In this document: one piece after another, positions 17,707 to 24,732 of the stretch
Position numbering within the stretch: position 1 is the stretch's first letter
Layout: each line of letters starts with the position of its first letter
Source of the DNA: an uncultured Bacilli bacterium
GTDB taxonomy: Bacteria; Bacillota_I; Bacilli_A; RF39; UBA660
Reading direction: 5' to 3'
Assembly (NCBI GenBank): GCA_944358705.1
Contig: CALVRR010000003.1
Span: 1,106 to 65,105 of the forward strand
DNA length: 64,000 nt
Translations under genes and position numbers: made by a program
Notes under the pieces: generated by a model
The model's input: only the letters and a program-made list of their open reading frames with translations
Told to the model about the DNA's origin: nothing
Database searches by the model: none

Positions 17707-18069
17707 AGTAGTTCCTTTCTGTTTTCTTATTATACTTCTTTTTTTAGTTTTTTCAATATTAAAAACCAATCCTTTTTATGGATTGATTTTTATTTTGTAT
17801 TATGAATTTCAGATATTTTTTTTAATATCATATCTACACAGTTATCAAATATTTTATCTAATTCATTTTTACTATATAATTTATAATTATGAGAAAAGAT
17901 TAATTCATTAAATTTTAATTTATTGAACTTAACAAACTTATTATTTAAGTAATTTATTCTATCATCCACTAATTCATCACTAATAAATCCATTTTTTAAA
18001 TACTTGATATTATCTTTTATTATTATACTATTCCTTGGTAAGTCTACTTTATTTTCTTTAAATAAATAC

Positions 18070-19437
18070 TTAGAACATCATTCTTTCTATTATATAATAT
18101 GGAATTTCATCAATATTTATAGTTGTCTGTTCCATTGTATCTCTGTTTCTTAACGTGACAGTGTTGTTTTCTAATGTATTATCGTCAATTGTAATACAAT
18201 AAGGTGTTCCTATCGCATCTTGCCTTCTGTATCTTTTACCAATTGTAGAAGTTTCATCGATAGTGCACATAAAATAACTATTTAGTTTATTGTAAATCTC
18301 ATGTGCTTTCTCGCTATGAATTTTTTTTATCAATGGAAGAACTGCTACTTTAAATGGAGCTAATGCGGGATGAAGTTTTAATACGTCTCTTATACTTCCG
18401 TCATCCAAAATTTCTTTTTTTAAAGCATCACATAAGAATACAAGCATCATTCTTCCTACACCAGCGGCAGTTTCTAAAATATATGGTATATATTTCTCGT
18501 TTGTTTCAGGATCTAAATAACTTAAATCTTTACCTGAAAATTTAGAATGTTGTGTTAAATCATAATTCGTTCTATTATGTATTCCCCATAATTCATCCCA
18601 ACCTGTTGGAAAGTTATATTGGATATCTGTTGCTGCACTTGCATAGAAAACTAATTTGTCATGGTCTTTAAATCTTAAATTTTCTGGATTTACTCCTAAA
18701 TCAGTTAAGAATTTCATTGATTGTTCCTTATTAAAATTAAATATTGCTTCATCTTCTCCAGGCTTACAAAAAGTTTGTAATTCCATTTGTTCAAATTCAA
18801 TAGTTCTAAATAAGAAATTACCAGGTGTTACCTCGTTTCTAAAACTTTTACCAACTTGAGCAATAGTAAATGGTAATTTTTCTCTAGCTGTTCTTAAAAC
18901 ATTTTGAAAATTAATATATTCTCCCTGACAAGTTTCAGGTCTTAAATATATTTCCATTTTTTGGTCACTAATTGTACCTCTATATGTTTTAAACATTAAG
19001 TCAAATTCTCTTAAATCAGTAAAATTACTTTTACCACAATTAGGACACTTAATATTTTCTTTTATATATTTATTCATTTCTTCATAAGTCATTAAATCTG
19101 GATTAACATCTGGAGCAACGGATGAGATAAGGTTGTCAGCTCTATATCTCTTTTTACATTCTTTACAATCAACTTGTGGATCATTAAATGATTTTGCATG
19201 ACCTGAAGCTTCCCAAACTTTAGGATTCATTATAATACCACAATCTATTTCGTAAGAATTATCTCTTTGTTGAACAAATCTTTTTCTCCAACAATCCTTA
19301 ATATTGTTAATCATTCTACTTCCTAAAGGTCCAAAATCCCATGTATTAGCAAAACCACCATAAATTTCACTTCCTGGATAAATAAATCCATATTGTTTAC
19401 AATAACTAGAAACCTGTTCCATTGTTAATTTTTCCAT
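18070..19437 (-). CDS. glyQS: Glycine--tRNA ligase (homodimeric GlyQS type)
   Basis: MEKLTMEQVSSYCKQYGFIYPGSEIYGGFANTWDFGPLG, FRNEVTPGNFLFRTIEFEQMELQ and the GVGRMML class II motifs. The start is the Met after the GAGGAG RBS. Confidence 0.9.
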   Translation of the reverse strand: MEKLTMEQVSSYCKQYGFIYPGSEIYGGFANTWDFGPLGSRMINNIKDCWRKRFVQQRDNSYEIDCGIIMNPKVWEASGHAKSFNDPQVDCKECKKRYRADNLISSVAPDVNPDLMTYEEMNKYIKENIKCPNCGKSNFTDLREFDLMFKTYRGTISDQKMEIYLRPETCQGEYINFQNVLRTAREKLPFTIAQVGKSFRNEVTPGNFLFRTIEFEQMELQTFCKPGEDEAIFNFNKEQSMKFLTDLGVNPENLRFKDHDKLVFYASAATDIQYNFPTGWDELWGIHNRTNYDLTQHSKFSGKDLSYLDPETNEKYIPYILETAAGVGRMMLVFLCDALKKEILDDGSIRDVLKLHPALAPFKVAVLPLIKKIHSEKAHEIYNKLNSYFMCTIDETSTIGKRYRRQDAIGTPYCITIDDNTLENNTVTLRNRDTMEQTTINIDEIPYYIIERMMF

Positions 19438-19460
19438 CTTAATCATCTCCTCATAAAAGC

Positions 19461-19580
19461 AAAAAGAGAACAAATTTGTATGGGCGTATTATAACGCTGT
19501 TCCACCATACTTTGTTCTCTTTGGTTTGTATATAGCTGTTAGGTTGCCAAGCCCGTCATTGCTTTTTAAAAATTAACTAC
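19461..19580 (-). promoter_or_regulatory. T-box-like glycine leader with terminator hairpin
   Basis: Minus strand: AAAGAGAACAAA-GTATGG-TGGAACA-GCG-ttataata-CGC-CCATAC-aaa-TTTGTTCTCTTTTTGC. Helix / 7-nt bulge UGGAACA / helix matches the canonical T-box antiterminator. UGGA would pair with the UCCA end of tRNA-Gly. GGC-A is present upstream (19545-19548). ATGGTGGAACAGCG matches 11 of 14 positions of the T-box consensus AGGGUGGUACCGCG. Confidence 0.6.
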
Positions 19581-19584
19581 TTAA

Positions 19585-19613
19585 ATTATATTTGTTTAGC
19601 GTAATATTGTCAA
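19585..19613 (-). promoter_or_regulatory. Sigma-A promoter of the glyQS leader
   Basis: Minus strand TTGACA (19613-19608), a 17-nt spacer, then TATAAT (19590-19585). Both hexamers are perfect. Confidence 0.65.
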
Positions 19614-19700
19614 GTACTGTAAAATTTATATACGAATTTAAAAGTATATGTTATTTAGTTCAATATTCTTATTTATAAAATATATAGTAATATTTATTTG

Positions 19701-19756
19701 AAATAAAGAGTTCGAACCTTCGTAAAATAAGTTTTGGTTTGATATCAATTTGGCGC
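19701..19756 (-). repeat. Degenerate copy C of the tRNA-Thr 3' end plus downstream sequence (att-like remnant)
   Basis: In tRNA sense: GCGCCAAATTGATATC...GGTTCGAACTCTTTATTTC, versus the authentic GGCACCAGATTGATAGG...CTCGAACTTTTTATTCGAG at 23941-23989. Confidence 0.5.
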
Positions 19757-19872
19757 TTTTTAGGAAGTTATCTACAACTTCTCATAAAATAGAGATTCAT
19801 ACAATATTTGCATTAATTTCTTAATATAAATAACCAAATAAAGTAAAAATTAGTACTAAATTTACGCTACTT

Positions 19873-20217
19873 TTATATACTTCTTTTAATTAATTCTTTT
19901 TGAAACGTTCCTGTTTTTTCTTCACTTGTATATATTTCATTAATAAATTGGTTTAATGGAATATATACTAATATATATTGATTAGTTCTAAATTTATTTA
20001 TCAATTCTTGATTTTCCTCATAATATTGCCTTATTTTTGATTGATTTATTCTGATTTTTTCTTCTTCTGACTTTTTATTATTTTTTTCATACAATTCAAT
20101 ATTTGGCCATTTAATACCACTGTATTTTATATCGTCAGGCTTTATTTGTGCCATCATAAAGTGAACTACATCAAATCTTGAGTATGAAAAAGTTCCATCA
20201 TTAATGTTTTCAATCAT
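19873..20217 (-). CDS. Hypothetical protein (114 aa)
   Basis: The track ORF starts at a TTG. I take the ATG (MIENINDG) 24 nt after the stop of the upstream ORF. No motif recognised. Confidence 0.4.
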   Translation of the reverse strand: MIENINDGTFSYSRFDVVHFMMAQIKPDDIKYSGIKWPNIELYEKNNKKSEEEKIRINQSKIRQYYEENQELINKFRTNQYILVYIPLNQFINEIYTSEEKTGTFQKELIKRSI

Positions 20218-20240
20218 TGCGACTTCTAACAAATCTGGTT

Positions 20241-20591
20241 TTATTTTTCACTTGTAAATCCATCAACCTCGTTGTTTTCATTTTCATTTACTACTTTTTC
20301 GCTATCAAATGTCAAATAAACTCCTTCTCCTAAATATTCCCTTATGTTTTTTGAATTAATAACTCTTGAGTATAATTCATTGTCAGAAAGTTGCATTTGA
20401 TTATTTTTTATTTTATTGTATACAATATTAAAATCAATTAAAAGTGCAATTGTACCATGAAAACCTTCTGAAAAAAATACTTTTTTTCTATTATCACCAA
20501 TTAATCTAGAATTTCGTCCACAAGAAGGAACTATACCTTCAGTATAAACTCTTTCTATTGTGTTAATTGATGTTGATCTAAAACATTTCAT
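20241..20591 (-). CDS. Hypothetical protein (116 aa), possible Tpt1/KptA-like ADP-ribosyltransferase-fold lobe
   Basis: Start at MKCFRSTS after an AGGGGGAA RBS. FRSTSINTIERVYTEGIVPS....KKVFFSEG....EGVYLTFDSEKV parallels KptA segments LYHGTS..FLDEI..GL....YVHLS....NGVWLTSTV. The comparison is by eye only. Confidence 0.4.
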   Translation of the reverse strand: MKCFRSTSINTIERVYTEGIVPSCGRNSRLIGDNRKKVFFSEGFHGTIALLIDFNIVYNKIKNNQMQLSDNELYSRVINSKNIREYLGEGVYLTFDSEKVVNENENNEVDGFTSEK

Positions 20592-20840
20592 GATACTATT
20601 CCCCCTGTTTGTTTGATTCTTATAAAAAACTTTTTCTATTTTTAATAAACTATCTCTTAAAATCATCATAGGCTATTCATAAGTTTCATGCTCTTTGAAT
20701 AATTTAATATTCTCTAATCTTATTATTTTGTAACTAAATATTTCATTCTATTTATCTCCTAAGTATTTTGACACAAGTATCAAAAATACCTGTTGGTATA
20801 AAAAATACCAGTATCATTAACTGGTATTAATATATATTAA

Positions 20841-20887
20841 GTTCGAAAAAGTTCGAACAGATTTCCCAATGGTGCCCGAAAGAGAGA
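20841..20887 (-). repeat. Copy B of the tRNA-Thr 3' end plus terminator hairpin (att-like)
   Basis: In tRNA sense: CTTTCGGGCACCATTGGGAAATCTGTTCGAACTTTTTCGAAC, versus the authentic CTTTCGGCACCAGATTGATAGGAAACTCGAACTTTTTATTCGAG. Confidence 0.6.
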
Positions 20888-20905
20888 AGTACAGCAACTC
20901 TTTGA

Positions 20906-20944
20906 GCAAAAGAAATAGTCAGTAATAATTTATTAACTGACTAT
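20906..20944 (-). terminator. Rho-independent terminator after ORF 20960..21754
   Basis: Minus strand: ATAGTCAGT-ttaataaattatt-ACTGACTAT followed by TTCTTTTG. Confidence 0.55.
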
Positions 20945-20959
20945 AGTATATCATAAAAT

Positions 20960-21754
20960 CTACAAATCTATTATCATTTTTGCAAATTTTTTCATACTTC
21001 TTCTTTGTTCTTGCTCTAGTTCAGTTCTTTGAGCGCTTGATAATGATACATTGTCTCTTACATGATCATAATATAAATTTTTTACTTGAAGAGAAGATGA
21101 AGGATATATTTCTCCTTCAGACCAACCATCTTTATATAGAGAATGCTTTGACATTTTAAAAGTCAAATAAGTTGATAAATCATTAGCTTTAGATATTTTC
21201 TCATTTAGTTCTCCAATATTATATACAGTAGGAGTTATTAAACGAATAATGTCTTCCTTTGAAATATTACCACTTCCATCCAATTGAATATCAAGTTCAG
21301 TAATTAAATCTTGAATAGATATAGTATCTCTATTTCCAATTTTTTCTATAACATTTAATAGTAAAAGAGCTTTATTTCTTACAATATTTGAATATCTATT
21401 AAAGTATTCTAAAGTATATGGTTCAAAATAATATCTTCCAGCACTTATGCCATCAACAAATTCTTGTGAAGAGGCTTCTATATCTTCATCAGTCCATTTG
21501 GCAATATTACCACTTCTTTTAGGTTTTGGGCTTTCGATTCTCTCCTTTAATTCTAGGTCTTCCTCTTCCCACTTTTTTTCTAAAAACTCTGTTATTTGCT
21601 CTTTAGTAACAACAACTTGAGCACTATTAACTGTATTTTTAATATCATCAAAATTAGTACCAAAAATATTTTCTAAAATTGTTATGATAAATTTAGAATC
21701 ATAATATTGATTATCTGCACTTTCAAAATATGAATCAAAGTTTAAACTTTCCAT
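20960..21754 (-). CDS. Hypothetical protein (264 aa) of the mobilizable element
   Basis: Clean ORF with a GAGGTGG RBS. No motif recognised. Confidence 0.55.
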   Translation of the reverse strand: MESLNFDSYFESADNQYYDSKFIITILENIFGTNFDDIKNTVNSAQVVVTKEQITEFLEKKWEEEDLELKERIESPKPKRSGNIAKWTDEDIEASSQEFVDGISAGRYYFEPYTLEYFNRYSNIVRNKALLLLNVIEKIGNRDTISIQDLITELDIQLDGSGNISKEDIIRLITPTVYNIGELNEKISKANDLSTYLTFKMSKHSLYKDGWSEGEIYPSSSLQVKNLYYDHVRDNVSLSSAQRTELEQEQRRSMKKFAKMIIDL

Positions 21755-21927
21755 ATAAAATCCACCTCTGTTTGTAAATATTATACACTATTTATACACT
21801 ATTTATTATTATTTTAAAATAGCAGAAGGAAAATTTTTTTCTATTCTGCTATCACACGTTCATTGATGATGTCAATGTGCAAGTGTGTTTACTAAATTGA
21901 CACCATTTAGTATTTAAGGACTACGAA

Positions 21928-23145
21928 TTAAAAAATATTGTAGTCCTTTTCTTCAATCATTTCTTTTTCTTTAGATGTATCTTTTGTAATATAAGTAATA
22001 TCAGAATCGTTATATAAGTTGTTATCATAACAATCTTTGATTTGAGTTATAACTATATCTTTTTCTTTGTCTTTTCCAAACAATAAAATGTTTCTAAAAA
22101 TATCTTTTAATGCTTGTAAGAATTGGATAATAAAGTTTTTAAATGAGGAATAATCATTTTCTAATTTATTAACTTTGTTTGTCAAATAGTTTATTTGTGC
22201 ATCTTTCCCGTCATTGACTGCTAATAGTGCCTTATAGTATTTAATCTCTTGTTGTAGTTCTTTATATAATCCTTCACTTTTTGAAACTTTATTAATTGCT
22301 TCTTTAGCTTGTTTTAAGTAATCCATTAAATATAAGTAAGTATCATAATCAAATACCACTTTATGATTAAATATCTTTTTTGCTTCACTTTTCATAGTTT
22401 TAAGGAGATTATTATATTCACGATTCATTTTATATTTTGTGTTATCTAAATTCTTATCTAACATACGAGTAATACCCTTTAATTGTTTAGGTGTTAAGTT
22501 TTTAATACCTGTATTTTTTTCTCCTTGTTCTATCTCAAATCCTTTATTTCTTAATCTTTCATAATATTTATCTTGTAGCTTAGACAAGTGGGTGCTACTC
22601 TTGATATATTCTTTTTTAGTTATACAATATTTTTCACTATTGATTCTTTTATCAAACTTTTTAATAAGAGGAACAACTACAATATGAATATGAGGAGTTG
22701 TTTCATCCATGTGTAGAGTAGCATGAATAACTTGTTCTTTTTTATAGCCTAAATCTTCATAAACAAATTTTAAGGTTTCTTCTGCCCATATCATTATTTC
22801 TTCTTTACTTAACTTATCAAAAAAATCCGTATCACTTGTAAATAACATTTCATCTGCAACAACACTTTTTGAATCATTTACCATTTGATAAAAACTTTTC
22901 TTTCTATCAGATCTCATATTTTCTTGTCTTTTATTGTATTCCTCTCTGTAATCCTTAGTAATATCATAAAATTTTTCAGTGTACTTTTTATCACATTTAA
23001 CAAGTTCAATATTATTGATAGTATCTTCTTTTCTAATATTTGGATTAGATTTATAAGATTCTTTTGTTCTTTGGTTATGAGAGCCAATTTGAGATAAATC
23101 ACTTAAAGTATTAATACCCTTGCATCTAAATATGGCACAACTCAT
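21928..23145 (-). CDS. mob: MobV-family (Mob/Pre) relaxase
   Basis: The N-terminus MSCAIFRCKGINTLSDLSQIGSHNQR resembles the MobV start MSYAV.R..K.....L.G...HN.R. HMDETTPHIHIVVVP is the HxDE...PHxH motif. The C-terminal half is coiled-coil-like. Start follows AAAGGAGG. Confidence 0.85.
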   Translation of the reverse strand: MSCAIFRCKGINTLSDLSQIGSHNQRTKESYKSNPNIRKEDTINNIELVKCDKKYTEKFYDITKDYREEYNKRQENMRSDRKKSFYQMVNDSKSVVADEMLFTSDTDFFDKLSKEEIMIWAEETLKFVYEDLGYKKEQVIHATLHMDETTPHIHIVVVPLIKKFDKRINSEKYCITKKEYIKSSTHLSKLQDKYYERLRNKGFEIEQGEKNTGIKNLTPKQLKGITRMLDKNLDNTKYKMNREYNNLLKTMKSEAKKIFNHKVVFDYDTYLYLMDYLKQAKEAINKVSKSEGLYKELQQEIKYYKALLAVNDGKDAQINYLTNKVNKLENDYSSFKNFIIQFLQALKDIFRNILLFGKDKEKDIVITQIKDCYDNNLYNDSDITYITKDTSKEKEMIEEKDYNIF

Positions 23146-23896
23146 TTTTAGCCTCCTTTGCCTTACCAATACGACTTAAGATTGCACTTTCCATATCTAG
23201 TGTTATAACACCTAATCTTAATGTTTTATCATCATATCTTTTTGAGTCAGATAAAACAATTAATCTTAATACTTTTTCATAATCTCCATGAGGAATAAAA
23301 CCAACATATTCTAACTTATCATCTGCTTCAATTTCATAATAATTTAGTTTTAGCTTATCATTTTTAATAGTATCTTGAAGTTTATCAAAATATTCTTGTG
23401 CTTCTTCATGTGTTTTACCTTCATGATTCATAGCTATTTTAGAACCATCAGAATCTTCAAAAACACTCCAATTACAAGGAACACCATATTCATTATGAAA
23501 GTTCACTAAATCAGCTAGAAAACTCTTCCTGTATTCAATATACTTTAATTCTGTGTGATCTCCAACTTTATTAACCTCAACATTATCAATATAGGTAGCA
23601 ATAATTTGCTTCATTTCCTCTCTTGGAGCATTTGTTAAACTTAGGATATTTTCCATCAATTTGTCAGGATAGATGAGTTCATCAATCTTCTTGGTACCCT
23701 CTAAAACTAATAAATCATTAGTAGTGAAATTAAAATTCTCATAAGCAATGTTAGTTCCTCTGATATTAATAATACTTCCTTGTTTAATAATAGGCTTAAC
23801 ACAAGCAAATCTACATATCATTTCAATCCTTTTTAAAACTTCCTTATCAAATTCTAATTCCTTAACAACATCCATACTCATCACTTCCATTCTCAA
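23126..23896 (-). CDS. Hypothetical protein (about 250 aa) of the mobilizable element
   Basis: Clean ORF overlapping the mob start by about 20 nt. The true start is probably one of the Met codons at residues 6 or 8 (GGAAGTGA RBS). No motif recognised. Confidence 0.55.
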   Translation of the reverse strand: MRMEVMSMDVVKELEFDKEVLKRIEMICRFACVKPIIKQGSIINIRGTNIAYENFNFTTNDLLVLEGTKKIDELIYPDKLMENILSLTNAPREEMKQIIATYIDNVEVNKVGDHTELKYIEYRKSFLADLVNFHNEYGVPCNWSVFEDSDGSKIAMNHEGKTHEEAQEYFDKLQDTIKNDKLKLNYYEIEADDKLEYVGFIPHGDYEKVLRLIVLSDSKRYDDKTLRLGVITLDMESAILSRIGKAKEAKNELCHI

Positions 23897-23940
23897 ATAA
23901 CAAAAAAACTAGACAATACTTCTAGTTAATATTTATTACT

Positions 23941-23989
23941 CTCGAATAAAAAGTTCGAGTTTCCTATCAATCTGGTGCCGAAAGACAGA
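23941..23989 (-). repeat. Copy A: authentic tRNA-Thr 3' end plus downstream terminator hairpin (reference for copies B and C)
   Basis: TGGTGCCGAAAGACAGA is the complement of the tRNA 3' end. CTCGAA-taaaaag-TTCGAG hairpin lies at 23941-23959. Confidence 0.6.
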
Positions 23990-24046
23990 ATTGAACTGTC
24001 CGCTGATCCTTACCAAGGATCTGTTTTACCACTAAACTATATCGGC
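23973..24046 (-). tRNA. tRNA-Thr (anticodon GGU)
   Basis: Hand-folded, 74 nt. Acceptor GCCGATA/TTTCGGC with one mismatch. D arm GTTT-AGTGGTA-AAAC. Anticodon arm GATCC-TTGGTAA-GGATC. T arm GACAG-TTCAATT-CTGTC. Discriminator A and encoded CCA. Confidence 0.9.
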
Positions 24047-24093
24047 AGATAAGAGTATTCTATCATATAATGAATACTATTTCAATAACAATA

Positions 24094-24168
24094 TGGTGTT
24101 CAAGACGGGAATCGAACCCGTATCATCTCCGTCGGAGGAAGAGATTCTATCCGTTGAACTACTTGAAC
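24094..24168 (-). tRNA. tRNA-Arg (anticodon CCG)
   Basis: Hand-folded, 75 nt. Acceptor GTTCAAG/CTTGAAC. D arm GTTC-AACGGATA-GAAT. Anticodon arm TCTTC-CTCCGAC-GGAGA. T arm ACGGG-TTCGATT-CCCGT. Discriminator A and encoded CCA. Confidence 0.9.
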
Positions 24169-24177
24169 GTTTTGGAA

Positions 24178-24732
24178 TTACTCACATTTCATTCCAAATT
24201 TTTCTGTAAATTCTAACCAGTCGTCTAGCTTTACTTTGCCATTTTTAATGACATTATCTTCTTCGCCTTCAATATCTAATAATTTGTCTATATCTATTTT
24301 ACCATAATTTATTACAGTGTCACTAGTAACACTATTGTCTGTTCTTTTTACTGTATTATCATAGTATTTTAGACCTTCATAATTTTTATAGATTCCTTTA
24401 TAAGCATTTTCATATTCATCTAAGGTTTCCTGATTATCAGTTACTACTTGTTCCGTTGAGTGTAATATTTGGATATATTCTCCTTGATAATAAACTTCAT
24501 AATCTAGATTTACATCAATATCACTTCCAGCATCCGCTTCTCTAGTACAGGTTAATTTACTCATTCCTTCGGTTTGGCTCTCTGGTACTTCTATTTTATT
24601 GTTTATGGATGGTTCACTAGTTTTCTTTTCTTGAATTTTTTTCGTTGTTGTTTCATTTTCCTTTCCACATCCAGCTAATAATAAAATTGCAATTAACAGT
24701 AAAGCAATCTTACCTATCTTTTTGGGATTCAT
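24178..24732 (-). CDS. Lipoprotein (possibly YehR/DUF1307-like)
   Basis: MNPKKIGKIALLLIAILLLAGCGKE carries a lipobox. The mature domain is about 150 aa. Confidence 0.65.
   Translation of the reverse strand: MNPKKIGKIALLLIAILLLAGCGKENETTTKKIQEKKTSEPSINNKIEVPESQTEGMSKLTCTREADAGSDIDVNLDYEVYYQGEYIQILHSTEQVVTDNQETLDEYENAYKGIYKNYEGLKYYDNTVKRTDNSVTSDTVINYGKIDIDKLLDIEGEEDNVIKNGKVKLDDWLEFTEKFGMKCE

What the first reader, a model, noticed from the sequence alone, without database searches (positions are those of the whole stretch)
19701..23989. Three copies of the tRNA-Thr 3' end plus terminator: tandem accretion of two integrase-less elements
The authentic tRNA-Thr(GGU) 3' end and its downstream hairpin read, in tRNA sense, CTTTCGGCACCAGATTGATAGGAAACTCGAACTTTTTATTCGAG (23941-23989).

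This sequence recurs as CTTTCGGGCACCATTGGGAAATCTGTTCGAACTTTTTCGAAC at 20841-20887. A more degenerate copy, GCGCCAAATTGATATC...GGTTCGAACTCTTTATTTC, lies at 19701-19756.

The repeats delimit two inserts:
- A 3.1-kb segment with a MobV relaxase and two unknown ORFs.
- A 1.1-kb segment with two small ORFs.

Neither segment encodes a recombinase. This looks like successive site-specific integrations at a tRNA attB followed by loss of integrase, or CIME-like cis-mobilizable elements that rely on an integrase supplied in trans. The repeats extend past the tRNA into the terminator hairpin, which is longer than a typical att core.
Basis: partly seen in the sequence, partly recalled or inferred. Interest (0 to 1): 0.65.

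Follow-up and report, generated by a model that had tools for sequence, protein, structure and literature searches.

The report
Two decayed tRNA-end-targeting mobile elements
Just after a threonine tRNA gene lie two broken-down copies of a widespread, apparently undescribed family of small mobilizable elements that carry a large serine recombinase, sit exactly after the CCA end of many different tRNA genes, and stack into arrays.

Summary
The sequences are at the stated coordinates. Copy B is a real match to the tRNA-Thr end. Copy C is not separable from background as a copy of A, but it is a genuine element junction by other criteria.

The repeats are mostly conserved element ends, not simple tRNA-Thr duplications. 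The left end GATTGATAGGAAACTCGAAC plus hairpin abuts the CCA of tRNA-Thr here. In at least 126 other contigs it abuts 13 anticodon classes of tRNA, tmRNA genes, or the right end of a neighbouring element.

Intact relatives read: left end, a 90-aa ORF, a ~620-aa large serine recombinase (LSR), an overlapping MobV relaxase, cargo, and a right end finishing in GCNCCA. LSRs at least 95% identical sit beside different tRNAs.

In the window:
- Element 1 (20870-23972) keeps MobV, an oriT-like repeat and a 264-aa cargo gene. An in-frame deletion fused codon ~45 of the small ORF to LSR codon ~409, leaving a recombinase remnant.
- Element 2 (19751-20869) is a one-gene remnant of a sister type.

Strains 98-99% identical differ at this tRNA. 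Tandem accretion with integrase loss is supported. The integrase was a serine recombinase, not a tRNA-type tyrosine integrase. I found no description of such a family.

The parts
23973..24046 (-). tRNA-Thr(GGU). Its CCA end is the insertion point (the B arm of attL).
   Evidence: ARAGORN and Rfam tRNA at 62.8 bits. Strain L083 diverges from the window exactly after base 23973.
20870..23972 (-). Element 1: a 3103-bp decayed integrative mobilizable element with a type-1 left end.
   Evidence: The left end is identical to that of intact LSR-MobV elements. The right end is homologous to right ends in L112 and L181.
23953..23972 (-). Type-1 left arm GATTGATAGGAAACTCGAAC, the inferred recombinase half-site (P').
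   Evidence: It is found directly after the CCA of 60 tRNA genes, 18 tmRNA genes and 43 element right ends in loci L116-L241. It also occurs in L038, L107-L110, L112 and L114.
23941..23959 (-). Left-end hairpin CTCGAAC-loop-TTCGAG.
   Evidence: Listed by the terminator-like scan. Of 45 unique left-end variants, 31 keep a perfect TCGAG complement with loops of varying length.
23901..23927 (-). Second hairpin followed by a run of seven T. A likely intrinsic terminator that insulates the element from tRNA read-through.
   Evidence: Read from the sequence. Conserved in most intact copies. The function is inferred.
23126..23875 (-). Chimeric 249-aa ORF. Residues 5-44 match the family's 90-aa first ORF. 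Residues 45-249 match residues 409-621 of the large serine recombinase. The deletion junction is near 23738-23746.
   Evidence: BLASTP E = 9e-10 and 9e-48 and tblastn. Homologues P0008, P0012, P0018 and P0019 carry Recombinase and Zn_ribbon_recom domains upstream of the same C-terminus. The ORF itself has no Pfam hit.
21928..23145 (-). MobV relaxase, 405 aa, apparently intact. Its start codon overlaps the stop of the recombinase remnant.
   Evidence: Pfam Mob_Pre E = 4.9e-27. It is 44% identical to mobV of small plasmids. It aligns over residues 14-414 of an intact element's Mob. The overlap is at 23126-23146.
21870..21902 (+). oriT-like inverted repeat TGTCAATGTGCAAGTGTGTTTACTAAATTGACA. It also overlaps a -35-like TTGACA for the 264-aa gene.
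   Evidence: Unique in the window. It resembles the sequence upstream of mobV in plasmids L104-L106. The same motif lies after the left end in relaxase-less mini-elements in L112, L145, L148, L194 and L197. The function is inferred.
20960..21754 (-). 264-aa cargo gene of unknown function.
   Evidence: No curated family matches. There are 165 homologues, and they also occur without MobV in L112-L115 and L136.
20870..20901 (-).
   Evidence: Homologous arms occur in L112 and L181. Eleven of the 13 nt before GCACCA match the tRNA-Thr.
19751..20869 (-). Element 2: a 1119-bp remnant with a type-2 left end, one cargo gene and a right arm.
   Evidence: The left end resembles sequences after tRNA-Thr in L083, L114, L025 and L181. 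In L083 and L114 these are followed by a 90-aa-ORF-like gene and, in L114, a resolvase fragment.
20851..20869 (-). Type-2 left arm TTGGGAAATCTGTTCGAAC. Its hairpin is at 20841-20858 and a terminator at 20800-20828.
19873..20669 (-). Cargo gene of element 2, split here into 142-aa and 119-aa ORFs by a 1-nt deletion in a run of A. It is intact (239 or 265 aa) in other strains.
   Evidence: There are only weak PADLOC SIR2 hits (E = 4e-4).
19751..19781 (-).
   Evidence: Best weight-matrix hit in the window at 21.3. It fits the family consensus AGTTGTAGATAnCTAC..GCNCCA.
19700..19750 (-). Degenerate left-end-like remnant, AATTGATATCAAAC... plus GGTTCGAAC. Either the relic of an older insertion or the ancestral tRNA flank.
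   Evidence: Matches the type-1 arm at 14 of 20 nt. Its status is uncertain.
19585..19613 (-). glyQS promoter (TTGACA, 17 nt, TATAAT). This marks where native DNA resumes.
   Evidence: Matches 12 of 12 consensus positions. GlyRS is at 18070-19437.

Best explanation
The region between tRNA-Thr(GGU) and the glyQS promoter is a tandem array of two decayed members of a family of small integrative mobilizable elements.

An intact member reads, in order:
- a conserved left arm (GATTGATAGGAAACTCGAAC plus hairpin) and a terminator;
- a ~90-aa ORF;
- a ~620-aa large serine recombinase (LSR);
- a MobV relaxase whose start overlaps the LSR stop;
- an oriT-like repeat and cargo;
- a right arm that ends in a tRNA-acceptor-like GCNCCA.

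Inferred mechanism:
- The LSR recombines the circular element's joined right and left arms (attP) with the 3' end of a tRNA or tmRNA gene.
- The crossover lies in or at the encoded CCA, so the tRNA stays intact and only about 3-6 bp are shared at the two junctions.
- A new element can enter again at the tRNA CCA or at the CCA of a resident right arm, and this builds arrays.
- MobV and oriT then let a co-resident conjugative element transfer the excised circle.

In this window:
- Element 1 lost the 3' half of the small ORF and LSR codons 1-408 by an in-frame deletion. The deletion preserves translation into the overlapping mobV.
- Element 2 retains only its arms and one frameshifted cargo gene.
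- Both could now move only if a related LSR acts in trans.

What is shown and what is inferred:
- Shown: the anatomy, the homologies, the distribution of junctions and the strain polymorphism.
- Inferred: that the LSR is the catalyst, where the crossover lies, the oriT function and mobilization in trans.
For: 1. The same left end, 94-100% identical, abuts the CCA of tRNA-Thr(GGU) in the window, L094 and L096. It also abuts tRNA-Thr(CGU) in L107, tRNA-Leu(CAA) in L108-L110 and a non-tRNA right arm in L095.
2. In 126 further contigs, giving 130 junctions, it follows 60 tRNAs of 13 anticodon classes, 18 tmRNA genes and 43 element right arms.
3. Intact copies carry the 90-aa ORF, the LSR and MobV immediately after the left end. 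The LSR has Resolvase, Recombinase and Zn_ribbon_recom domains.
4. LSRs at least 95% identical sit at different targets: Gly-GCC, Gly-TCC and tmRNA; tmRNA, Thr-CGU and Leu-UAG; Gly-GCC and Ala; Arg-UCU and Leu-CAA.
5. The window ORF 23126-23875 is a fusion of the small ORF's N-terminus and the LSR C-terminus.
6. Right arms have a conserved consensus. They delimit complete elements of 4.8-6.8 kb whose outer flanks are unrelated AT-rich sequences.
7. MobV is confirmed. An oriT-like repeat resembles the sequence upstream of mobV in plasmids.
8. The locus is polymorphic. L095 has an extra element joined at GCACCA, and L083 has a sister element at the same tRNA. All ten contigs shown that carry the gene upstream of the tRNAs end at or just past them.
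Against: - No experiment or excised-circle read shows recombination. The LSR's role rests on association.
- No empty site was recovered, so the crossover position is deduced only from what varies and what is constant.
- The metagenome search pattern itself began with CCA, so CCA adjacency in that set is forced. It is independent only in the viral scan and in loci found through proteins. That the CCA belongs to a tRNA was not forced.
- Element 1's right arm resembles the local tRNA-Thr end over about 18 nt. A crossover confined to CCA does not predict this.
- LSRs normally need both attB half-sites, yet the outer flanks seen here look unrelated.
Confidence: 0.8

Rival explanations
1. These are classical tRNA-gene islands. 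Each insert was integrated by a tyrosine integrase whose attP carried a copy of the tRNA-Thr 3' end. That left displaced tRNA fragments (B and C) as direct repeats, and the integrase genes were later deleted.
For: B matches the tRNA-Thr end at 16 of 18 nt with one indel, more than other family right arms do. tRNA genes are the usual targets of tyrosine integrases (PMC4383910).
Against: - No tyrosine integrase or remnant is present in the window elements or in any intact relative examined.
- The left end joins different tRNAs exactly at CCA, and each keeps its own acceptor stem.
- A serine recombinase remnant sits where the integrase should be.
- C shows no specific similarity to the tRNA-Thr (score 1).
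Confidence: 0.08
2. The MobV (Pre, 'plasmid recombination enzyme') relaxase integrated a small mobilizable plasmid by site-specific recombination between its oriT (RSA-like site) and a chromosomal pseudo-site at the tRNA end.
For: Element 1 is plasmid-sized. Its MobV is 44% identical to relaxases of 4-6-kb plasmids. From my own knowledge, Pre proteins of pT181 and pE194 promote RSA-by-RSA recombination.
Against: - The oriT-like repeat is internal (21870-21902), not at either junction.
- The junction sequences are unrelated to it.
- The same junctions bound elements with no relaxase.
- No replication gene was detected.
Confidence: 0.03
3. This is single-strand transposition of the IS200/IS605 kind. 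The element inserts 3' of a short target (NCCA) and is guided by subterminal hairpins at both ends.
For: Insertion is 3' of a fixed short sequence with no target duplication. A hairpin begins 13 nt inside the left end, and a small hairpin lies about 10-13 nt before the right terminus.
Against: - No Y1/HUH transposase is encoded.
- The gene consistently next to the left end is an LSR with an intact catalytic domain.
- The targets are specifically tRNA or tmRNA ends, not any CCA.
Confidence: 0.04
4. The repeats are chance or convergent similarity. They would be short AT-rich terminator hairpins next to a common CACCA, with no mobile-element meaning.
For: The A-to-C alignment score (30) is no better than background (29). 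GTTCGAAC is a simple palindrome.
Against: - A-to-B is a clear outlier.
- The arms are conserved across species next to recombinase and relaxase genes.
- Strains differ precisely at these junctions.
Confidence: 0.03

Closest known systems
Tn4451/Tn4453 mobilizable transposons (TnpX large serine recombinase plus TnpZ Mob/Pre relaxase)
   Same: A small integrative mobilizable element that pairs a large serine recombinase with a MobV-family relaxase and an oriT. It uses multiple target sites and shares only very short repeats at its ends (PMC5704250).
   Different: - The LSR here has no DUF4368. That domain is common in the multi-targeting LSR clade described in PMC10083194, which I take from my own knowledge to include TnpX. 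The LSR here has instead a distinct ~300-aa C-terminus with no Pfam family.
- Only 105 representatives in 1.8 billion proteins match the window's remnant ORF, which is mostly that C-terminus.
- The targets are the CCA ends of tRNA and tmRNA genes, not GA-centred sites resembling the element joint.
- The LSR and mob genes overlap in one operon behind a 90-aa ORF.
Dehalococcoides ssrA genomic islands (DsiB/CcrB-like serine recombinase; PMC3146451)
   Same: Serine-recombinase integrative elements at a tRNA-like gene. They accumulate in tandem downstream of it. Some members lack the integration module and are discussed as cis-mobilizable.
   Different: - Those insert inside the tmRNA T-loop and leave a 20-bp direct repeat at a single target gene.
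- Here the junction is at the CCA end, the shared core is about 3-6 bp, and one LSR lineage uses many tRNAs.
- Those islands carry no relaxase. These carry MobV.
Classical tDNA islands and tycheposons (Islander, PMC4383910; bioRxiv 10.1101/2020.12.28.424599)
   Same: tRNA-proximal integration, arrays of degenerate elements and cargo next to the tRNA, and island growth by repeated insertion.
   Different: - Those use mainly tyrosine integrases, each specific for one tRNA, and their attP carries a tRNA fragment that restores the gene.
[quoted passage not shown]
- Here there is no tRNA fragment at the left junction, and the target tRNA is not fixed.
CIMEs and accretion (cis-mobilizable elements of the ICESt1/ICESt3 type; tandems in Firmicutes, PMC12084326)
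   Same: Element 2 and the relaxase-less mini-elements in other contigs are att-flanked segments with no recombination or transfer genes. They stand in tandem with fuller elements.
   Different: - Element 1 still encodes a relaxase, so it is a decayed integrative mobilizable element (IME) rather than a CIME.
- The att sites are of a serine-recombinase type.
Multi-targeting large serine recombinases (Durrant et al. 2022, PMC10083194)
   Same: Closely related LSRs (clustered at 90% or more) are found at several different target loci.
   Different: - That paper defines targets by protein-coding gene clusters and does not mention tRNA.
- Its multi-targeting clade is marked by DUF4368, which is absent here.
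iOriT-type hitchers (bioRxiv 10.64898/2026.01.13.699239)
   Same: Many family members keep only the arms, the oriT-like repeat and cargo. They would depend on a helper's relaxase and mating pore.
   Different: Those were defined in six nosocomial species with other oriT families. Here the oriT assignment is only by resemblance.

Membership tests
Integrative and mobilizable element (IME) of the serine-recombinase plus MobV kind | Encodes its own integrase or excisionase | tested here: not met
   The window copy retains only LSR residues ~409-621 fused to another ORF. There is no other LSR in the 64 kb. Intact relatives meet this feature.
Integrative and mobilizable element (IME) of the serine-recombinase plus MobV kind | Encodes a relaxase | tested here: met
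   Pfam Mob_Pre E = 4.9e-27. It aligns over the full length of relatives.
Integrative and mobilizable element (IME) of the serine-recombinase plus MobV kind | Carries an oriT | tested here: inconclusive
   The inverted repeat at 21870-21902 contains GTGTGTT and resembles the regions upstream of plasmid mobV genes. Nicking was not tested, and the repeat may also be a promoter-operator.
Integrative and mobilizable element (IME) of the serine-recombinase plus MobV kind | Flanked by att sites, with excision as a circle | tested here: inconclusive
   Conserved left and right arms are present. No circular junction or empty site was observed for this locus.
Large serine recombinase | N-terminal resolvase catalytic domain, then a recombinase domain, a zinc ribbon and a coiled coil | tested here: not met
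   The window ORF has no Pfam hit. These domains are present only in intact relatives.
CIME (cis-mobilizable element) | att-flanked, with no recombination and no conjugation or mobilization genes | tested here: inconclusive
   Element 2 fits: it has two arms and one cargo pseudogene. Element 1 does not fit because it encodes MobV. Whether the arms still function is untested.
Classical tDNA island (tyrosine integrase) | Tyrosine integrase gene on the island | tested here: not met
   None was found in the window elements or in intact relatives.
Classical tDNA island (tyrosine integrase) | Displaced fragment of the target tRNA at the distal end, with the tRNA 3' part supplied by the island | tested here: inconclusive
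   B resembles the tRNA-Thr end. However, the left junction is at CCA for many tRNAs, each with its own acceptor stem. C shows no specific match.
Tn4451/Tn4453 family | TnpX-type LSR. DUF4368 is common in the multi-targeting LSR clade of PMC10083194, and placing TnpX in that clade is my own knowledge. | tested here: not met
   Pfam finds no DUF4368 in the intact LSR.
MobV (MOBV) relaxases | Mob_Pre domain with the HxDE..PHxH motif | tested here: met
   HMDETTPHIH is visible in the translation.
IS200/IS605-like elements | Y1 HUH transposase (TnpA) | tested here: not met
   No such gene is present in the window elements or in relatives.

The most novel reading that the evidence does not exclude
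A lineage of large serine recombinases has evolved to use the 3' end of essentially any tRNA or tmRNA gene with an encoded CCA as its attB. On this reading it recognises a tRNA-like left half-site and tolerates almost any right half-site. The element's own right arm is a tRNA-end mimic or a captured tRNA end. Repeated insertion at the tRNA CCA or at resident right arms then builds integron-like arrays of one-to-few-gene cassettes downstream of tRNA genes in gut Bacilli. Genuine tRNA ends may occasionally serve as surrogate right arms and so capture new cargo.
Probability: 0.4. Interest if true: 0.85.

Novelty: new variant of a known kind. Interest (0 to 1): 0.7.

Why it matters
- tRNA genes are the textbook targets of tyrosine integrases. 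Serine recombinases are said not to specify them (PMC4383910). A serine-recombinase family that lands at the CCA end of many tRNAs would be an exception.
- The tRNA stays intact, because almost nothing is shared or duplicated at the junctions.
- Such a family would explain island growth and cassette-like gene turnover next to tRNA genes in poorly known, uncultured gut Bacilli.
- It would also explain why assemblies of these genomes break at tRNAs.
- It offers a natural LSR with a short, universally present and harmless landing site. That is of interest for genome engineering.
- For this window specifically, it turns two 'integrase-less' segments into datable decay products with a known parent architecture.

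Tried and rejected
- **Ungapped repeat finder.** It did not report the A/B/C repeats because of indels.
- **GlyRS synteny in 80 GTDB genomes.** The closest is only 64% identical and none has a tRNA-Thr upstream, so it gave no help towards an empty site.
- **Exact-protein look-ups.** Queries were GlyRS, the lipoprotein next to the tRNAs, MobV and a downstream 128-aa protein. They gave strain variants but no empty site.
- **Relaxase-mediated integration.** Rejected because the oriT-like site is internal.
- **First reading of the 75-aa N-terminal module.** I first read it as a gene interrupted by an LSR element, from the WDGH and Resolvase fusions P0042 and P0043. This was superseded once intact 89-91-aa ORFs were seen.
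- **IS200/IS605-like transposition.** Considered and set aside.
- **PLSDB.** The 249-aa ORF and the left end gave no match. The LSR is at most 32% identical to plasmid proteins, over its N-terminal half only.
- **Domain and defence libraries.** PHROGs and PADLOC gave nothing useful for the cargo genes.
- **Solved structures.** A PDB sequence search on the 249-aa ORF gave nothing.
- **Structure prediction.** The AlphaFold model of the 249-aa ORF was poor (pLDDT 57) and Foldseek against PDB gave no match at E <= 0.001.
- **Viral-contig scan for the type-2 left end.** No hits.
- **Rfam.** No T-box or other family at E <= 1 in 19300-24200 apart from the tRNAs.
- **Literature.** Five searches found no description of this family. 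The library is not exhaustive.

Full report
**Context.** The window is AT-rich DNA (about 27% GC) from an uncultured member of the Bacilli. The closest GlyRS among 185,579 species representatives is only 64% identical. Read on the minus strand, the locus runs as follows:
- a lipoprotein gene (24178-24732);
- tRNA-Arg(CCG) (24094-24168) and tRNA-Thr(GGU) (23973-24046);
- 4.3 kb holding five ORFs;
- a perfect sigma-70 promoter (19585-19613) and glyQS (18070-19437).

**Checking the observation.**
- A Smith-Waterman scan of the tRNA end plus downstream sequence over both strands of the window ranks B first among non-self hits (45 against a mean of 16). C comes next at 30, but a background site scores 29.
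- All family right ends share a terminal GCACCA. Excluding it, B matches the tRNA-Thr in 11 of the 13 preceding nt. Eighteen other right ends score 0-5 against B's 9, and 0.2% of shuffles reach 9.
- C has no specific resemblance to the tRNA-Thr (score 1).
- So A and B are confirmed as a repeat, while C as a copy of A is not.

**What the ORFs are.**
- The 405-aa protein is a MobV relaxase (Pfam Mob_Pre, 4.9e-27). It is 44% identical to relaxases of 4-6-kb plasmids.
- The ORF upstream of it (23126-23875) has no Pfam hit. Its homologues include 408-431-aa proteins with Recombinase and Zn_ribbon_recom domains ahead of the same C-terminus. Its first ~50 residues recur fused to unrelated domains.
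- The other ORFs have no curated family.

**The left junction is an element end, not a tRNA-Thr flank.**
- Contigs found through those homologues carry the window sequence from 23972 downward at 94% identity. There it follows tRNA-Thr(CGU) (L107) and tRNA-Leu(CAA) (L108-L110), joined exactly at CCA.
A search without the CCA found six viral contigs.
- Of 130 oriented junctions, the 20-mer follows 60 tRNA genes of 13 anticodon classes (Leu, Gly, Thr, Cys, Arg, Phe and Ala), 18 tmRNA genes and 43 non-tRNA sequences. Nine lie at contig edges.
- Caveat: the CCA was part of the main search pattern. Its being a tRNA terminus was not.
- The CCA is also present in the viral set and in most loci found by other routes. 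One junction in L112 ends in GCA instead.
- Each tRNA keeps an acceptor 3' strand complementary to its own 5' end.

**The intact architecture.** Where enough sequence follows, the order is:
- the left arm and hairpin, then a second hairpin with a T-run;
- an 89-91-aa ORF;
- a 592-624-aa protein, then an overlapping 414-437-aa MobV;
- cargo.

The large protein has Resolvase (residues 10-154, with YKRVST), Recombinase (177-262) and Zn_ribbon_recom (276-314). The remaining ~300 residues have no Pfam family.

The window ORF aligns to the small ORF (residues 5-44 to 6-45) and then to LSR residues 409-621 (E = 9e-48). An in-frame deletion near 23738-23746 therefore removed every catalytic and DNA-binding domain. 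The LSR stop and mobV start still overlap (23126-23146), as in intact copies. I infer that this preserves translational coupling into mobV. There is no other LSR in the window.

**Right ends and arrays.**
- The 43 non-tRNA sequences preceding the left arm share a consensus, aaAGTTGTAGATAnCTACgnCnnnnGC(A/T)CCA.
- A weight matrix built from them finds further copies 4.8, 5.3 and 6.8 kb downstream of left ends in L121, L235 and L175. In L121, L175, L242 and L243 the sequences after them are unrelated and AT-rich. In L235 and L148 another left end follows.
- The elements thus have a defined right arm ending in a tRNA-acceptor-like GCNCCA, and they often stand head to tail.
- In the window the matrix's best hit on either strand is 19751-19783, the upstream half of copy C. 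It scores 21.3, against 19.1 for the best opposite-strand hit in about 1 Mb.
- The arm at B is a one-nt-longer variant with homologues in L112 and L181.

**Element 2.**
- The sequence after B's CCA (TTGGGAAATCTGTTCGAAC) recurs after a right arm in L181.
- In diverged form it also follows tRNA-Thr genes in L083, L114 and L025.
- In L083 and L114 it is followed by a small-ORF homologue, and in L114 also by a resolvase fragment.
- I read it as the left arm of a sister (type-2) family.
- Element 2 (19751-20869) is then such an arm, a terminator (20800-20828), one cargo gene broken by a 1-nt deletion and a right arm.
- The 50 nt beyond C resemble a left arm only weakly (14 of 20). They may be an older relic or the native flank.

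**Multi-targeting.** Among 21 intact LSRs, clusters at 95% or more amino-acid identity sit beside different genes: Gly-GCC, Gly-TCC and tmRNA; tmRNA, Thr-CGU and Leu-UAG; Gly-GCC and Ala-UGC; Arg-UCU and Leu-CAA. Everything 5' of CCA, including the discriminator base, follows the tRNA, and everything 3' is constant. Any 2-bp crossover must therefore lie in or at the CCA. This is an inference.

**Transfer module.**
- The inverted repeat at 21870-21902 (TGTCAAT...AGTGTGTT...ATTGACA) is unique in the window. It resembles the sequence just upstream of mobV in three plasmids.
- The same motif lies shortly after the left arm in mini-elements that lack the small ORF, the LSR and MobV. They look like deletion derivatives that keep the arms, the oriT and cargo.
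- The motif also overlaps a TTGACA -35 box for the cargo gene, so a purely regulatory role is not excluded.

**Polymorphism at this locus.**
- Strains L094, L096 and L098 (about 99% identical) share the arrangement.
- L095 matches from 23978 downward. Upstream it carries radical-SAM cargo and a right arm (…TATCTTAACTATCGCACCA) also found in L112, L155 and L177. This is a third element in tandem.
- L083 (98% identical) diverges exactly after the tRNA CCA into a type-2 left arm and the start of a small ORF.
- All ten contigs shown that carry the gene next to the tRNAs end at or just past them. I attribute this to the left arm being a repeat within these metagenomes.
- No empty site was recovered.

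**Comparison with what is known.**
- LSR plus MobV mobilizable elements exist (Tn4451/Tn4453; PMC5704250).
- Serine-recombinase islands stack at the tmRNA gene of Dehalococcoides, but inside the T-loop and with a 20-bp repeat (PMC3146451).
- Multi-targeting LSRs are known, typically with DUF4368 (PMC10083194). That domain is absent here.
- tRNA-proximal arrays of decayed elements are known for tyrosine-integrase systems (bioRxiv 10.1101/2020.12.28.424599).
- Five literature searches found no description of this family. Only 105 representatives in 1.8 billion proteins match the window's remnant ORF, and PLSDB has no close relative.

**Verdict.**
- The repeats are element arms rather than three copies of the tRNA-Thr end. 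The recombinase is a serine enzyme whose remnant is still present.
- The parent family's habit of landing at the CCA end of many tRNAs is the notable point.
- Unexplained: element 1's right arm resembles the local tRNA-Thr over about 18 nt.

Noticed in passing
window 17796-18057: The spacer between the GlyRS stop and the next gene is 262 bp here and in strains L096 and L098, and contains a 59-aa ORF. It is only 75 bp in L094, L095 and L099. This is a small insertion/deletion polymorphism of unknown nature. Its 3' end carries a terminator-like hairpin that also resembles one in L083.
   Followed up: partly
window 19438-19613: The glyQS leader has a perfect TTGACA-17-TATAAT promoter, a T-box-like GGTGGAACAGCG and a terminator-like stem just before the start codon. 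Even so, Rfam reports no T-box at E <= 1.
   Followed up: partly
L095 1-2328: A strain about 99% identical carries an additional tandem element at the same tRNA. Its cargo is two radical-SAM proteins, 84% identical at the DNA level to cargo of a tmRNA-inserted element in L175.
   Followed up: partly
L236-L241, L185, L204, L237: Some junctions have only the last 10-26 nt of a real tRNA (Cys, Gly or Ala) in front of the left arm. Several are in contigs classed as viral. They are probably tRNA fragments displaced by other integrative elements using the same tRNA.
   Followed up: no
window 23126-23146 and intact elements such as L116: The last residues of the recombinase (NELC-x-I) are encoded by the same bases as the conserved MobV N-terminus (MS-x-AIFR). 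This overlap may explain why the 3' end of the recombinase gene survives in decayed copies.
   Followed up: partly
window 20960-21754; L112, L114, L136: The 264-aa cargo protein belongs to a family of at least 165 proteins with no Pfam domain. The family recurs as a cassette in these arrays in several species, always behind the same inverted-repeat and promoter motif.
   Followed up: partly
L181 195-3416: Just after a type-2 left arm lies a different, minus-strand 555-aa serine recombinase (YCRLSRDD type) with neighbouring genes. This suggests nesting of another element inside an array.
   Followed up: no
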